In this document: in pieces, positions 9,780 to 13,057 of the stretch
Layout of the letters: the number at the start of each line of letters is the position of its first letter
Numbering within the stretch: position 1 is the stretch's first letter
IMG/VR virus record: IMGVR_UViG_2548876855_000021
DNA length: 13,469 bases
Direction: 5' to 3' (one strand)
From: a virus
Taxonomy: Duplodnaviria; Heunggongvirae; Uroviricota; Caudoviricetes
Position numbers and translations under genes: made by a program
The notes under the pieces: generated by a model
Told to the model about the DNA's origin: nothing
Databases searched by the model: none
What the model saw: the letters and a program-made list of their open reading frames with translations, nothing else

Positions 9780-10346
9780 TTAAACAGGATAAAAACCAGA
9801 GCTTCCATTCTTATTTAAGTTATGGATTTTATTTGCATCATTAATTTTTATTTGGAACGTCGGACCTTTATTCTCAAGAATTACAATCTGGAAATTATAG
9901 TCCCTTTTGATTAATGCGTGATAAAATGAATCACTGAGACTGACGCTATTAACATCCGATAGAGAACCCCCTCTATCTTTATCAAAGTGCGTCACTAATG
10001 GACTATCAAGCACAACAAATCCAATGAATGGATTCCCTTTTCTTGATAAAAATTCCGCAAAGCAAATGGTAAATATAGCATGCATTACTGCACGGGTACC
10101 TTTACCAAACATTCCTCGGCGTTTCCCATTGATATTAAAGTCATATGTATCTTCGTCAAATCGCACTTTGTTATCTTTAGAATTTTCAAAATTTATATCA
10201 TTCAAAAAGTCTTGCATCGCTATTTCTATATCATACAAATCAGCTACTGTTAAGGAGTCAAAGTCCTCGGCGGAGTATTTAAGTTCGTCAACATCATCTT
10301 CTTTATCTTGTAATGAAGATAGAATGCTATGTTTTGTGTGATCCAT
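9780..10346 (-). CDS. C-terminal head segment of an SMC/Rad50-like ABC ATPase (signature-like and Walker B-like motifs); possibly a fragment of a split or pseudogenised gene
   Basis: 188-aa ORF with ATG start overlapping an upstream stop as TAATG. MFGKGTRAVMHAIFTICFAEF followed by GFVVLDSPLVTHFD resembles the ABC signature helix then Walker B (hhhhD), but with Ser where the catalytic Glu is expected. Same reading frame as the two upstream ATPase ORFs. Confidence 0.55.
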   Translation of the reverse strand: MDHTKHSILSSLQDKEDDVDELKYSAEDFDSLTVADLYDIEIAMQDFLNDINFENSKDNKVRFDEDTYDFNINGKRRGMFGKGTRAVMHAIFTICFAEFLSRKGNPFIGFVVLDSPLVTHFDKDRGGSLSDVNSVSLSDSFYHALIKRDYNFQIVILENKGPTFQIKINDANKIHNLNKNGSSGFYPV

Positions 10347-10427
10347 TAAAAGATTGTCTTTATATTCATAAAGTGATTCAAGAGATGAATGTATTGTTTT
10401 ATATTTTTATCTTCTAACGTCTTAAAA

Positions 10428-10937
10428 TCACTTTTTTTCTGATTGATAAATTTCATTAACATCATTTTTTCTTAACATAATTAATTCATGTTCGCGAACA
10501 TTAGATCCGATTGATTCAATTAATCCTTTCAGCTGGCTTTTGATTTTCAATTTTTCTGCATTACACGACAAAAAACAATCATCATATGATATTTCATTTT
10601 CTTTTTTTTGCGGTGTATTACAGAACTCACAATAAATATCTGCAAAATTATTTAAATAGAAATTCGCCTGTGATACAACATCTATTCTTTGTAGATCTAT
10701 AAAGTATTGGTCTTTAAGAAGACTAAATCTTTCAATGAGTAATGATAAGTATTTTTCCCTGTCACTGATTGAATATAATTCATCACTTAACTCTTTTAAT
10801 AATTGCTTCTTATCATCAAGTGCATCAACAATACCTTTCAATATATCTTTCGATGATTCAATATCTTGCTCTACTTTCTCAAGTTCTCTTGAAACAATGA
10901 CTTGATCATATTCAGGATAAATTAATTGCGCTTTCAA
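10428..10937 (-). CDS. Coiled-coil segment with a CxxC...CxxxC motif (putative zinc hook) of an SMC/Rad50-like ATPase; no canonical start codon
   Basis: 169-aa ORF rich in E/K/L/Q heptad-like sequence with CEFC-X17-CFLSC in the middle. The track start is TTG with poorly spaced Shine-Dalgarno sequence; it is in frame with the upstream ORF and separated from it by a single TAA (10968-10970). Confidence 0.45.
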   Translation of the reverse strand: MKAQLIYPEYDQVIVSRELEKVEQDIESSKDILKGIVDALDDKKQLLKELSDELYSISDREKYLSLLIERFSLLKDQYFIDLQRIDVVSQANFYLNNFADIYCEFCNTPQKKENEISYDDCFLSCNAEKLKIKSQLKGLIESIGSNVREHELIMLRKNDVNEIYQSEKK

Positions 10938-10967
10938 TTCCTCATAAATATTTGCAATTTGATTTTT

Positions 10968-11627
10968 TTAAAAATATCTTGCTTTTTTATTTGGTTTTTC
11001 TGCTAAGGAGTTAGTATCATCTCTCTGAGTTAAAAGGAATTTAAATTCAGACTTTCTTTTTGTCTCCTCGCTAGGAATATCAGAAAGAATTAACGACTTC
11101 TCAGTTAACACTCTTAATTCATCAATACAAAAAAATTCAAAAACATTATTAAGATTAAATTTATGAAGAGTATTACTTAAGTTTGTTCTTACTTTAGCCT
11201 CTTTGAAATTCAACCTACCATAAAAGTATGATGAAAAACTCTTTTTAGACGAAGCACTTTTGGAAAAAACCATCAACAGATTAGCTTCACTAACATTTTC
11301 AATGCTCGAATCATATAATCTGTAATGGGCGCTATCCTGAAGAGACCTCTCAATTGTCATTACCCTACCTTGAAAATTAAATTCCAGATAGGCTAAATCA
11401 TAACCTTGAGCATGATCGATATCTTTATTTTTTAGTTTTTCACTCCCTAATAAATATCGAATCAAATAATATATGTATGTTTTTCCAGAGTCAGAACCAC
11501 CATATAAAATAGTCAATTTAGAACCAAATTCAATTATAGCATCTAATTTATTGAATCCGGTTACCTTTATTTTTCTGAACGTAAAAAAATTGTCATTCAT
11601 AATTAAATTCCATATCATATTTGCCAA
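10968..11627 (-). CDS. N-terminal head segment of an SMC/Rad50/RecF-like ABC ATPase (Walker A)
   Basis: FRKIKVTGFNKLDAIIEFGSKLTILYGGSDSGKTYIYYLIRYLLG matches the canonical SMC-type N-terminal head with a GxxxxGKT P-loop. The track start is TTG at 11627; a more likely start is ATG at 11618 or 11600 (the latter overlaps the upstream stop as ATGAATGA). Confidence 0.6.
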   Translation of the reverse strand: MANMIWNLIMNDNFFTFRKIKVTGFNKLDAIIEFGSKLTILYGGSDSGKTYIYYLIRYLLGSEKLKNKDIDHAQGYDLAYLEFNFQGRVMTIERSLQDSAHYRLYDSSIENVSEANLLMVFSKSASSKKSFSSYFYGRLNFKEAKVRTNLSNTLHKFNLNNVFEFFCIDELRVLTEKSLILSDIPSEETKRKSEFKFLLTQRDDTNSLAEKPNKKARYF

Positions 11628-12051
11628 TTTTATTTTTTATAATTGATTGCAACTGCTCATCAGGAATATCACTATATAACTTAACCACCAAATTTATATT
11701 ATGCTCCATCTGCGCAACATATTCATTATGTAGAGAATTTGTAAATGCATATGTTTTTTCAGAAGCTTTATATACAAAACCACGATGTGTATAAATTTTT
11801 GAGGCTAGTTCATAGCCTTGCAACAAAGCCAATGATTCTAAAACAATCTCTCGTTTTAGGGCTAACTGAGCATCTCTACGGGGTATTGGAGGATGAAGAC
11901 TAATCTCTTCAGGTAAAAAATCCTTAAGATTTACTAAAATAAAATCAAAACAAATAAGCCGTTCAAGGCTTAATGAAGAAGGATAAATAGCGACGAGCAC
12001 TTTCGCCATTCGACATGCCACTTCTAAACTTGAATTATAAATTCTAACCAT
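11593..12051 (-). CDS. Hypothetical small protein (about 152 aa) of the cassette
   Basis: ORF in the track as 11593..12066 (TTG start); an ATG at 12049-12051 overlaps the upstream stop as TAATG, indicating translational coupling. No motif recognised. Confidence 0.55.
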   Translation of the reverse strand: MVRIYNSSLEVACRMAKVLVAIYPSSLSLERLICFDFILVNLKDFLPEEISLHPPIPRRDAQLALKREIVLESLALLQGYELASKIYTHRGFVYKASEKTYAFTNSLHNEYVAQMEHNINLVVKLYSDIPDEQLQSIIKNKIGKYDMEFNYE

Positions 12052-12668
12052 TATCTCACCGTCCAAATTACTTCACCATCATTAACCAAATGATGGCATA
12101 TTCCTTTTTTATCATTTGCTTCACATATTTTTGATAGTACTGAATGTGCAATTGGTGTCAGAACAGCCTGCTTCAAGACTGCATTACACCTAATAAATGC
12201 ATAATTATGGTCTTCATAAAAGACGGGTTCAATTGAAGATGAAATGTAACATTTCAATGCTTTGAATACATCATCTTTAAATACTTCGCGGACAAAAACC
12301 TCAAGCGAAGATGCAAAATAAAAATCATTTCTACTATTATTAAAGTGTCGTCTGTATGGATCATCAAGCTCTAAGAAAGAACTATAAGTTTTATTTCCAT
12401 GCTCTGAATAGGCTTGAAGCAGTGCATTAACATATACAGACTCTTTTTTTGAATTGTATGTTGGAATTTCATTTGGAGGGATTCTCACGACATACAGCTC
12501 GTTAAAGTACTTAAAATAAAGGTGTGTATTTGCAATATCATTTAAAATCAATGATAAGGGTAGAGAGTAAAAAATACTAAAATCAAAATCCTCAATATAT
12601 TTTTTTATTTCATCATCTAATGGAATATCAATCTTTTTAGTTATTTTTTTGAAATTGCTGAATCCCAT
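12051..12668 (-). CDS. Hypothetical protein of the cassette; possibly the C-terminal part of a nuclease-domain effector whose N-terminal part is the upstream ORF
   Basis: 205-aa ORF, ATG at 12668 with a weak ribosome-binding site, overlapping the upstream ORF by 28 nt in the -1 frame across an A7 tract. No motif recognised. Confidence 0.5.
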   Translation of the reverse strand: MGFSNFKKITKKIDIPLDDEIKKYIEDFDFSIFYSLPLSLILNDIANTHLYFKYFNELYVVRIPPNEIPTYNSKKESVYVNALLQAYSEHGNKTYSSFLELDDPYRRHFNNSRNDFYFASSLEVFVREVFKDDVFKALKCYISSSIEPVFYEDHNYAFIRCNAVLKQAVLTPIAHSVLSKICEANDKKGICHHLVNDGEVIWTVR

Positions 12669-13057
12669 GAATCAAGGACTGCTTTTTTAAGCTCGTTTTT
12701 ATTTTTCAATAAATTAGAAAATGTAGTAGATAAATCATAGGGTGCCACAAAAAAGTACTTCTGAGGGATGGGATAATCACCATTCAGAGTAAAATAGATA
12801 AGTTTTCCAAACTCAACTACAACATCAGAGAACCCTAAACTTTTTTTGTACAGTTTGCATTGATAATTATCCCAAGAATAACCTTCTACGTTAGGATCCG
12901 ATTTATATCCAACAACGTCTCTACCTTTATCTCCAGCTCCTCCCAAACGTTCGCTCCACGGGTAATCATCTGATTTACAGACAATAAGCCAATCATGGAC
13001 AAATACCTCCCATTGTTCATCATCCCATGTCAATATTTCCGAAAGTGGTTGAGACAC
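12641..13057 (-). CDS. Mrr-like (PD-(D/E)xK) restriction-endonuclease-fold domain protein
   Basis: 138-aa ORF with GTG start and a strong AAGGAG Shine-Dalgarno sequence 7 nt upstream. WEVFVHDWLIVCKSDDYPWSERLGGAGDKGRDVVGY followed by DNYQCKLY resembles the Mrr catalytic-domain pattern (GDGGIDG ... QCK) as I remember it. Confidence 0.55.
   Translation of the reverse strand: MSQPLSEILTWDDEQWEVFVHDWLIVCKSDDYPWSERLGGAGDKGRDVVGYKSDPNVEGYSWDNYQCKLYKKSLGFSDVVVEFGKLIYFTLNGDYPIPQKYFFVAPYDLSTTFSNLLKNKNELKKAVLDSWDSAISKK

What the first reader, a model, noticed from the sequence alone, without database searches (positions are those of the whole stretch)
9780..13057. AT-rich six-ORF cassette in the P4 psu-int position with Lamassu/DdmABC-like architecture (Mrr-like nuclease, small protein, SMC/Rad50-like ATPase)
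Six tightly packed, overlapping minus-strand ORFs of strikingly low GC sit between the sid-psu-ogr module and the integrase, the position reported as a defence-cargo site in P4-like satellites. Motifs read directly: an Mrr-like nuclease core in ORF 12641-13057, a canonical SMC-type Walker A head in 10968-11627, a coiled coil with CxxC in 10428-10937, and a signature plus Walker B-like head in 9780-10346. Nuclease effector, then small protein, then SMC-like ATPase is the order I recall for Lamassu/DdmABC, but here the large genes are fragmented, so this is either a decayed known-family system or an unusual split variant.
Basis: partly seen in the sequence, partly recalled or inferred. Interest (0 to 1): 0.85.

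Follow-up and report, generated by a model that had tools for sequence, protein, structure and literature searches.

The report
Decayed Lamassu defence operon in satellite
The six small AT-rich genes are the broken pieces of an ordinary three-gene Lamassu anti-phage system, carried in the cargo slot of a P4-like phage satellite of E. coli O157:H7; this cassette is already in the literature, so the result is ordinary.

Summary
Six minus-strand ORFs lie at exactly the stated coordinates, at 27-34% GC against about 50% in the flanks. They sit between ogr/delta-psu-sid and a truncated integrase of a P4-like satellite.

The Lamassu reading is right. PADLOC models tile the ORFs as LmuA (A+B), LmuC (C) and LmuB (D+E+F), with E-values from 1e-20 to 1e-50. 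LmuA has an Mrr-type nuclease domain plus the ABC-3C CTD6 domain.

The cassette is decayed, not a designed split variant. Intact homologues in Proteus (89% nt) and in a Pantoea-type P4-like satellite at the same int|cargo|ogr-psu-sid position have three genes of 335, 152 and 606 aa. The window differs by a 1-nt deletion in lmuA, a TTA>TAA nonsense codon in lmuB, and two 1-nt homopolymer indels in lmuB.

Only the O55:H7/O157:H7 lineage carries it (308-309 of 5,426 E. coli genomes). Further lesions accumulate in sublineages.

The O55:H7 copy, 99.7% identical, was published as 'Lamassu-var' (Domainator, NAR 2024) with only a small-plaque phenotype.

One curiosity: the lmuA deletion created A_AAA_AAA-TAA, where a -1 slip would restore full-length LmuA.

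Novelty: already known. Interest: low.

The parts
12051..13057 (-). lmuA pseudogene. The intact form is 335 aa: an N-terminal Mrr-type PD-(D/E)xK nuclease plus the ABC-3C CTD6 domain. Here it is split into ORF A (12641-13057) and ORF B (12051-12668) by a 1-nt deletion.
   Evidence: PADLOC LmuA PDLC03852 positions 10-140 (9e-41) and 141-333 (4e-44). Pfam CTD6 7.7e-30. 1-nt gap against intact homologues. The repaired product is 92.5% identical to the Proteus LmuA over 335 aa with no gaps.
12641..12650 (-). The lesion site in lmuA: an A7 run (12644-12650) read as A_AAA_AAA in the ORF A frame, followed directly by the ORF A stop TAA (12641-12643). ORF B lies in the -1 frame.
   Evidence: Codon layout. 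The 81 nt around the site are identical in 309/309 E. coli records. There is no stimulatory structure downstream.
11593..12051 (-). lmuC (152 aa, ABC-3C middle component 2). This is the only gene of the three that is still intact.
   Evidence: Pfam MC2 6e-30. PADLOC LmuC 2.5e-36. 90.8% identical to the Proteus LmuC over its full length. RefSeq start at 12051.
9780..11600 (-). lmuB pseudogene. The intact form is 606 aa: an SMC/Rad50-like ABC ATPase with a short coiled coil and a CxxC hook. Here it is split into D (10968-11600, Walker A head half), E (10428-10937, coiled coil plus CEFC) and F (9780-10346, GKGTRA and VVLDS head half).
   Evidence: PADLOC LmuB PDLC03863 positions 3-199 (8e-50), 230-386 (3e-20) and 428-608 (5e-37). 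606-aa homologues P0001 (87%) and P0002 (75%). Alignment A2.
10968..10970 (-). Nonsense codon TAA at lmuB codon 211, which is TTA in the intact homologues and in O55:H7.
   Evidence: O55:H7 has a fused 394-aa D+E ORF. The stretch is identical to the window in 295 of 309 records and different in 14.
10432..10438 (-). A7 homopolymer in lmuB, +1 relative to intact A6. This state is rare: most O157:H7 have A6 and O55:H7 has A5.
   Evidence: Only 3 of 309 records match the window over 10385-10482.
10404..10408 (-). A5 run in lmuB, -1 relative to A6 in the Proteus homologue. It was deleted in all three E. coli copies aligned.
9720..9753 (-). Terminator-like hairpin (13-pair stem) 27 nt downstream of the lmuB stop codon. 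It is the likely end of the operon.
   Evidence: a consensus scan only.
13055..13068 (-). lmuA translation start: GGAG (13065-13068) and GTG (13055-13057). Both are conserved in the intact homologues and overlap the 3' end of the integrase gene.
13061..13372 (-). Integrase remnant: the C-terminal 103 aa of a 393-aa tyrosine recombinase. The gene is interrupted by IS1203/IS629 immediately right of the window.
   Evidence: Pfam Phage_integrase 1e-11. RefSeq annotation and IS position. Integrase is intact in O55:H7.
7792..9370 (+). sid-like (7792-8544), psu (8541-9092) and ogr/delta (9098-9370). These are the conserved flank of the satellite's cargo hotspot.
   Evidence: Pfam Psu 7e-10 and 4.8e-42, and Ogr_Delta 1e-16.

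Best explanation
The cassette is a pseudogenised copy of a canonical short (type II) Lamassu / ABC-three-component operon. The operon is lmuA (Mrr-type nuclease plus CTD6), lmuC (MC2) and lmuB (SMC/Rad50-like ATPase, about 600 aa). It was acquired as low-GC cargo in the integrase-to-ogr/psu hotspot of a P4-like satellite.

For intact systems the published mechanism (taken from the literature, not shown here) runs as follows. An LmuB dimer with LmuC holds a monomeric LmuA inactive. LmuB senses DNA ends or phage replication intermediates. LmuA is then released, oligomerises, and its nuclease degrades DNA, aborting the infection.

In the O55:H7/O157:H7 lineage the operon was hit by a 1-nt deletion in lmuA and another in lmuB. 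O157:H7 then gained a nonsense codon at lmuB codon 211, and sublineages gained further homopolymer indels. In the window only lmuC is intact. LmuB cannot be made as one chain, so canonical Lamassu defence is most likely lost. The inactivity is inferred.
For: The model tiling shows that A+B, C and D+E+F are one LmuA, one LmuC and one LmuB (Pfam).

Intact three-gene homologues of 335, 152 and 606 aa exist at 89% nt identity in Proteus mirabilis. Another, at 79% nt, sits at the same int|lmuACB|ogr-psu-sid position of a P4-like satellite on a Logan read-set contig (L007). That contig is 99.9% identical to the Pantoea alhagi locus L006, where only a 201-aa LmuA ORF is called.

The lesions are single-nucleotide events mapped.

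dN/dS against the intact homologues is 0.06-0.115. The intact-versus-intact control gives 0.07-0.08. Nearly all divergence therefore accrued under purifying selection and the breaks are recent.

The census of 309 E. coli records supports stepwise decay. The lmuA lesion region is identical in all. The nonsense region differs in 14 (the O55:H7 copies examined carry TTA). The A8-tract stretch differs in 69. The window's A7 state occurs in only 3. O55:H7 still has D+E fused as a 394-aa ORF.

The integrase is also destroyed by an IS in O157:H7.

Millman et al. report that all three components are needed for defence. The mechanism comes from Haudiquet et al. 2025.

The LmuA fold model (pLDDT 94.4) matches solved LmuA chains and Mrr-like nucleases.
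Against: The Domainator paper reports smaller plaques of T2, T4, T6 and RB69 on cells carrying the O55:H7 version, which is 99.72% identical and has five ORFs. This suggests some residual activity.

All conserved catalytic motifs are still intact in the fragments.

The lmuA break sits on an A_AAA_AAA slippery heptamer where a -1 slip restores the ancestral protein. Related A-rich sites shift frame efficiently in E. coli.

Split ABC/Rad50 head halves can associate non-covalently (my own knowledge, not tested here).

No expression or phenotype data for the O157:H7 form were available.
Confidence: 0.85

Rival explanations
1. It is a functional split Lamassu variant, as 'Lamassu-var' was interpreted in print. 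The nuclease domain, the CTD, and two or three LmuB pieces would be made as separate polypeptides and assemble non-covalently into a working sensor-effector complex.
For: A small-plaque phenotype on T-even phages is reported for the O55:H7 five-ORF version. Catalytic and structural motifs are intact in every fragment. The cassette is retained in 308-309 genomes.
Against: Every relative outside this one clonal lineage has three uninterrupted genes. The breaks are single-base deletions in A-runs and a nonsense codon, with no new start signals. About 12 and about 29 residues of the coiled coil are lost. More lesions keep arising in sublineages. The stated coordinates of the published clone end at the first base of the lmuA GTG, so the conserved GGAG and any upstream promoter are missing. 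The phenotype was seen only at the highest dilutions. Retention in a young clonal lineage needs no selection.
Confidence: 0.07
2. It is a leaky pseudogene. Full-length LmuA would still be made at a low level by a -1 ribosomal or transcriptional slip on A_AAA_AAA-TAA. That would give an attenuated system, or a free Mrr nuclease with some other role, even though LmuB is broken.
For: ORF B is in the -1 frame of ORF A. The slip product reads ...SAISKKITKK..., which matches the homologues' ...SAISKKISKK... The full product is 92.5% identical to the Proteus LmuA over all 335 aa, without gaps. C-AAA-AAA gave 25-60% -1 frameshifting in E. coli, and A_AAA_AAA is a proven motif in an IS cluster.
Against: There is no stimulatory structure downstream (z 0.70). 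The frameshift is not conserved in homologues, which use one frame. Deletions in AT-rich genes are expected to fall in A-runs anyway. LmuB, which is required for defence, has lesions at poor slip sites plus a stop codon. Transcription is uncertain after the IS insertion in int.
Confidence: 0.06
3. The apparent frameshifts are homopolymer sequencing or assembly errors, and the genes are really intact.
For: All the indels lie in A-runs. The window's A7 state at 10432-10438 is found in only 3 of 309 records, so that one lesion could be an assembly artefact or a private mutation.
Against: The 81 nt around the lmuA deletion are identical in 309/309 independently assembled records. The lmuB deletion at 10404-10408 is present in the three E. 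coli copies aligned: the window, TW14359 and O55:H7 RM12579. The nonsense codon is a substitution and its region is identical in 295 records.
Confidence: 0.02

Closest known systems
'Lamassu-var' of E. coli O55:H7 TB182A (CP038295 4,116,517-4,120,474), Domainator paper, NAR 2024 (PMC11754643)
   Same: It is the same cassette, with 11 differences in 3,960 aligned columns against window 9098-13057. The flanks are the same satellite with a Psu distant from that of P4. The paper recognised it as Lamassu-related through PADLOC and counted it as the most abundant psu-integrase hotspot cluster in E. coli: 259 instances of 3-9 CDSs.
   Different: The O55:H7 copy still has TTA at lmuB codon 211, so D+E form one 394-aa ORF, and it has A5 instead of A7 at 10432-10438. 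The paper treats it as a system variant. The passages I read do not mention that it is a frameshifted form of a three-gene operon.
Short (type II) Lamassu with Mrr effector ('Lamassu-Mrr'; Millman et al. 2022; the Mrr subtype among short Lamassus in Haudiquet et al. 2025), also known as ABC-3C systems with CTD6/MC2
   Same: The gene order is lmuA-lmuC-lmuB. LmuB is about 600 aa, with Walker A GGSDSGKT, a short-type Walker B VVLDS and one CxxC hook. LmuC matches MC2. LmuA has an Mrr-type nuclease N-terminal domain and the conserved CTD.
   Different: Here lmuA and lmuB are interrupted. Relatedness to the experimentally validated E. coli SE15 Lamassu-Mrr was not measured.
Vibrio cholerae DdmABC / Lamassu Vc-Cap4 and Salmonella LmuACB (solved complexes 9nxx, 9ny1, 9ny5, 9hqx, 9uxh)
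   Different: The effector domain is Mrr-like, not Cap4/DUF4297. Sequence identity is only 9-13%. Sequence searches of the PDB found none of the solved Lamassu proteins and nothing significant for LmuA or LmuC; the LmuB profile gave only weak SMC/Rad50 head hits.
Intact orthologous cassettes: Proteus mirabilis island (L005) and a Pantoea-type P4-like satellite (L007/L008; the P. alhagi genome copy is L006)
   Same: Nucleotide identity is 89% and 79%. The start signal GGAG-N7-GTG is identical. L007 shares the same insertion position between int and ogr-psu-sid.
   Different: These carry uninterrupted genes of 335, 152 and 606 aa. In the P. alhagi genome copy (L006) only a 201-aa LmuA ORF is called. 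The Proteus copy sits in a different, non-P4 island next to smpB.

Membership tests
Lamassu (short / type II, LmuACB) = ABC-3C system | LmuB: an SMC/Rad50-like ABC ATPase of about 600 aa with Walker A Gx4GK[ST] and short-type Walker B hhhhD[Q/S/T/E] | tested here: met
   D, E and F tile PADLOC LmuB PDLC03863 (8e-50, 3e-20, 5e-37). GGSDSGKT and VVLDS are present and sit in conserved columns. The LmuB profile weakly hits SMC and Rad50 heads in the PDB.
Lamassu (short / type II, LmuACB) = ABC-3C system | LmuC: a small middle component | tested here: met
   Pfam MC2 6e-30 and PADLOC LmuC 2.5e-36. The 152-aa gene is intact.
Lamassu (short / type II, LmuACB) = ABC-3C system | LmuA: an N-terminal effector domain fused to the conserved ABC-3C C-terminal domain | tested here: met
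Lamassu (short / type II, LmuACB) = ABC-3C system | One operon in the order lmuA-lmuC-lmuB | tested here: met
   All genes are on the minus strand with overlapping junctions, in the same order as the intact homologues.
Lamassu (short / type II, LmuACB) = ABC-3C system | All three genes intact; each is required for defence (Millman et al.) | tested here: not met
   lmuA carries a 1-nt deletion. lmuB carries a nonsense codon and two indels. The locus is therefore filed as a pseudogenised member, not a working system.
Lamassu (short / type II, LmuACB) = ABC-3C system | Anti-phage or anti-plasmid activity | not testable with these tools
   There is only a published weak small-plaque phenotype for the O55:H7 five-ORF form.
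Mrr-type PD-(D/E)xK nuclease (Pfam Mrr_cat) | Catalytic D ... (D/E/Q)xK core on a restriction-endonuclease fold | tested here: met
DdmABC / Lamassu-Cap4 | LmuA effector is a Cap4 (DUF4297) nuclease | tested here: not met
P4-like satellite defence hotspot | Variable cargo between the integrase and psu/delta of an element with alpha, ash, alpA, sid, psu and delta | tested here: met
   Pfam hits to primase-helicase (alpha), DUF5375, Ash, AlpA, Psu (twice) and Ogr_Delta. Integrase remnant. L007 has the same layout. Psu is distant from P4 Psu.
Programmed -1 ribosomal frameshift gene | A slippery X_XXY_YYZ heptamer in the right frame | tested here: met
   A_AAA_AAA lies at 12644-12650 with ORF B in the -1 frame.
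Programmed -1 ribosomal frameshift gene | The frameshift is conserved among homologues and has a stimulatory element | tested here: not met
   Homologues encode LmuA in one frame. The downstream fold is no better than shuffles.

The most novel reading that the evidence does not exclude
The broken cassette might not be dead. A -1 slip on A_AAA_AAA-TAA would re-create full-length LmuA at a low level, and the LmuB pieces would associate non-covalently. The result would be an attenuated, low-toxicity Lamassu: a natural split SMC-like sensor fixed in the O55:H7/O157:H7 lineage. That would explain the weak T-even phenotype reported for 'Lamassu-var'.
Probability: 0.07. Interest if true: 0.5.

Novelty: already known. 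Interest (0 to 1): 0.18.

Why it matters
The locus has mostly corrective value.

First, the most abundant psu-integrase 'hotspot system' counted in E. coli (259 instances, published as a Lamassu variant) is one clonal, frameshifted copy of a standard Lamassu-Mrr operon. It should not be used as a reference architecture or as an HMM seed.

Second, it is a clear counter-example to the recent generalisation that defence pseudogenes are very rare in P4 hotspots. It also offers a dated series of decay steps, from O55:H7 to O157:H7 to its sublineages.

Third, the intact Proteus and Pantoea-type orthologues give ready-made repaired controls for testing how much breakage a Lamassu tolerates.

Tried and rejected
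- NCBIfam gave no meaningful hit for any ORF.
- Pfam Mrr_cat does not hit ORF A or the intact LmuA directly. The Mrr assignment rests on homologues, invariant columns and fold.
- PDB sequence and profile searches for LmuA, LmuB and LmuC found nothing useful beyond weak SMC/Rad50 head hits.
- The genome-contig scan with the Proteus LmuB confirmed no locus. Context came from the look-up of encoding contigs instead.
- The first 81-nt probe for the nonsense codon returned nothing, probably because of the low-complexity filter. I repeated it with an offset probe.
- Phase variation of lmuA is rejected: the A7 tract stretch is identical in 309/309 records.
- Programmed frameshifting is rejected as a designed feature: it is not conserved and has no stimulator.
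- Recoding rescue of lmuB is rejected: the lesions lie at poor slip sites and there is also a stop codon.
- The promoter scan was not above the shuffled expectation in this AT-rich DNA, so no promoter is assigned.
- The DdmABC/Cap4 subtype is rejected.
- Two literature searches failed on term syntax.
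Full report
**Observation.**
GC falls to 0.27-0.34 across 9750-13000, against about 0.5 in the neighbouring genes.

A three-frame translation shows the junctions. ORF B is in a different frame from ORF A. D, E and F all share one frame and are separated by in-frame stops. 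So 'overlapping' holds for A/B, B/C and C/D but not for D/E/F.

The window is 100% identical to an E. coli O157:H7-type chromosome (NZ_CP032808). RefSeq there calls B an 'ABC-three component system protein', C 'ABC-three component system middle component 2' and D an 'AAA family ATPase'.

**Identity.**
PADLOC profiles tile the ORFs as parts of three proteins:
- A and B cover positions 10-140 and 141-333 of one LmuA model (9e-41, 4e-44).
- C is LmuC (2.5e-36).
- D, E and F cover positions 3-199, 230-386 and 428-608 of one 610-position LmuB model (8e-50, 3e-20, 5e-37).

Pfam adds CTD6 of ABC-3C systems on B and MC2 on C.

A search with the read-through LmuB found uninterrupted 606-aa proteins: 87% identical in Proteus mirabilis and 75% in Pantoea alhagi. 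Their loci encode LmuA (335 aa), LmuC (152 aa) and LmuB (606 aa). In locus L007, a Logan contig 99.9% identical to the P. alhagi locus, the operon sits 3 nt after a 393-aa integrase. It is followed by ogr/delta, psu, sid, alpA, ash, DUF5375 and the alpha primase-helicase, which is the window's layout. Pfam confirms the same P4-like core genes in the window.

**The effector.**
Sixty full-length LmuA homologues share invariant G42, D43, G45, D47, Q66 and K68. ORF A has GDKGRD...QCK at those positions. Eleven of the sixty reach Pfam Mrr_cat and all sixty hit CTD6.

An AlphaFold model of the closest homologue returned by the protein search (P0023, 69% identical to the Proteus LmuA; pLDDT 94.4) was compared with solved structures:

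This is therefore a short Lamassu with an Mrr-type effector, not the Cap4 type of DdmABC. The LmuB fragments keep Walker A GGSDSGKT, the CxxC hook (CEFC), GKGTRA and the short-type Walker B VVLDS (motif definitions).

**Decay, not design.**
A DNA alignment with the intact operons (89.3% and 78.7% nt identity) leaves only single-base events:
1. One base is lost in lmuA, creating an A7 run at 12644-12650. This lesion is also in TW14359 and O55:H7.
2. TTA has become TAA at lmuB codon 211 (10968-10970). It is present in the window and TW14359 and absent from O55:H7.
3. One extra A sits in the 10432-10438 run.
4. One base is lost in the 10404-10408 run. This lesion is in all three E. coli copies aligned.

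TW14359 also lacks one A in the A8 run near 10603.

In the window, events 3 and 4 cancel each other. That is why D, E and F share a frame, with three stops in the ten out-of-frame codons between E and F.

dN/dS between the repaired window genes and the intact homologues is 0.06-0.115. The intact-versus-intact control gives 0.07-0.08. The genes were therefore under purifying selection until recently.

**Distribution.**
The cassette occurs in 308-309 of 5,426 complete E. coli genomes. All copies are at least 99% identical, and all those listed are O157:H7 or O55:H7.

I used short probes so that any single difference drops identity below 99%. Results across 309 records:

| Region probed | Identical to window | Different |
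|---|---|---|
| lmuA lesion | 309 | 0 |
| lmuB nonsense codon | 295 | 14 (the one listed is O55:H7) |
| A8 tract | 240 | 69 |
| 10385-10482 (window's A7 state) | 3 | 306 |

O55:H7 still has D+E fused as a 394-aa ORF and an intact integrase. In O157:H7 the integrase is cut by IS1203. This is stepwise erosion in one clonal lineage.

**Literature.**
Lamassu-family systems with Mrr effectors were described and validated by Millman et al., who found that all three components were required. The short and long classes, the LmuA1B2C1 complex, DNA-end sensing and LmuA tetramerisation come from Haudiquet et al. 2025.

The Domainator paper found a 'Lamassu-related' cluster to be the commonest psu-integrase hotspot in E. 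coli, with 259 instances of 3-9 CDSs and a Psu only 31% identical to that of P4. The authors cloned CP038295 4,116,517-4,120,474 and saw only smaller plaques for T2, T4, T6 and RB69.

That interval runs from the ogr start to the ORF A start in E. coli O55:H7 TB182A. It is 99.72% identical to window 9098-13057. The finding is therefore already in print, although the passages I read do not describe it as pseudogenised.

The stated clone ends at the first base of the lmuA GTG. It would thus lack the conserved GGAG at 13065-13068. I infer that this further weakens the phenotype as evidence of function.

A 2026 survey reports that defence pseudogenes are very rare in P4 hotspots. This locus is an exception.

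**A curiosity.**
The lmuA deletion produced TCA AAA AAA TAA, with ORF B in the -1 frame. A -1 slip on A_AAA_AAA yields ...SAISKKITKK... and a 335-aa protein that is 92.5% identical to the Proteus LmuA without gaps.

Such A-rich sites do shift frame in E. coli. C-AAA-AAA gave 25-60% frameshifting, and A_AAA_AAA is a proven motif in an IS cluster. Against a designed frameshift, there is no downstream structure, homologues use a single frame, and lmuB has no comparable rescue route. I treat the site as adventitious.

**Verdict.**
The kind is known, this very cassette is published, and in the window it is most likely non-functional.

Noticed in passing
window 1500-3100 (ORF 2067-3023, + strand): A second low-GC island (0.28-0.34) lies between the host LysR gene and the satellite's alpha gene. 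It holds a 318-aa hypothetical protein (RefSeq WP_000205213.1) with no significant Pfam or PADLOC hit. It may be another cargo gene at the alpha-proximal end of the element.
   Followed up: partly
window 13061-13469 and just beyond the right end (L001 13771-14984): Only the C-terminal 103 aa of the satellite integrase remain. IS1203/IS629 is inserted immediately right of the window, and the N-terminal part of int lies beyond it. TW14359 keeps a longer remnant and O55:H7 has an intact 393-aa integrase. The element is therefore immobilised in O157:H7.
   Followed up: partly
window 10560-10655 and 10385-10482: Homopolymer lengths inside dead lmuB vary among O157:H7 genomes. The A8-tract stretch differs in 69 of 309 records, and the 10432-10438 run is seen as A7, A6 or A5. 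These could be lineage markers or assembly artefacts. Raw reads were not available.
   Followed up: partly
L009 2518-6475 (CP038295 4,116,517-4,120,474): The published 'Lamassu-var' clone includes the whole ogr/delta gene. By its stated coordinates it stops at the first base of the lmuA GTG, leaving out the conserved GGAG and any promoter in the int 3' end. This may bear on the weak phenotype reported.
   Followed up: partly
window 9720-9753 (minus strand) and 9477-9491 (plus strand): Convergent terminator-like hairpins sit in the 410-bp spacer between ogr/delta and the lmuB stop codon. The minus-strand one has a 13-pair stem. P4's cos site would be expected in this spacer (from my own knowledge of P4); I did not examine that.
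   Followed up: no
window 7792-9370: The sid-like protein matches the Pfam Psu model (7e-10). The gene order here is sid-psu-delta, not the sid-delta-psu order I recall for P4. Psu is reported as only 31% identical to P4 Psu. This is a distant branch of P4-like satellites.
   Followed up: partly
summary; P0022: One copy of the cassette is reported on a record typed as a plasmid. Separately, a 344-aa protein (P0022) combines an MC2 domain with 95% identity to the LmuB N-terminus, which suggests an LmuC-LmuB read-through call in some assembly. Neither was examined.
   Followed up: no
L005 (Proteus mirabilis) 6543-9821 and flanks: The closest intact operon (89% nt) is not in a P4-like element. 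It lies in an island next to smpB with a split integrase, a DUF927 protein and an rve-family (IS-type) transposase. The same cassette has therefore moved between different mobile-element types.
   Followed up: no
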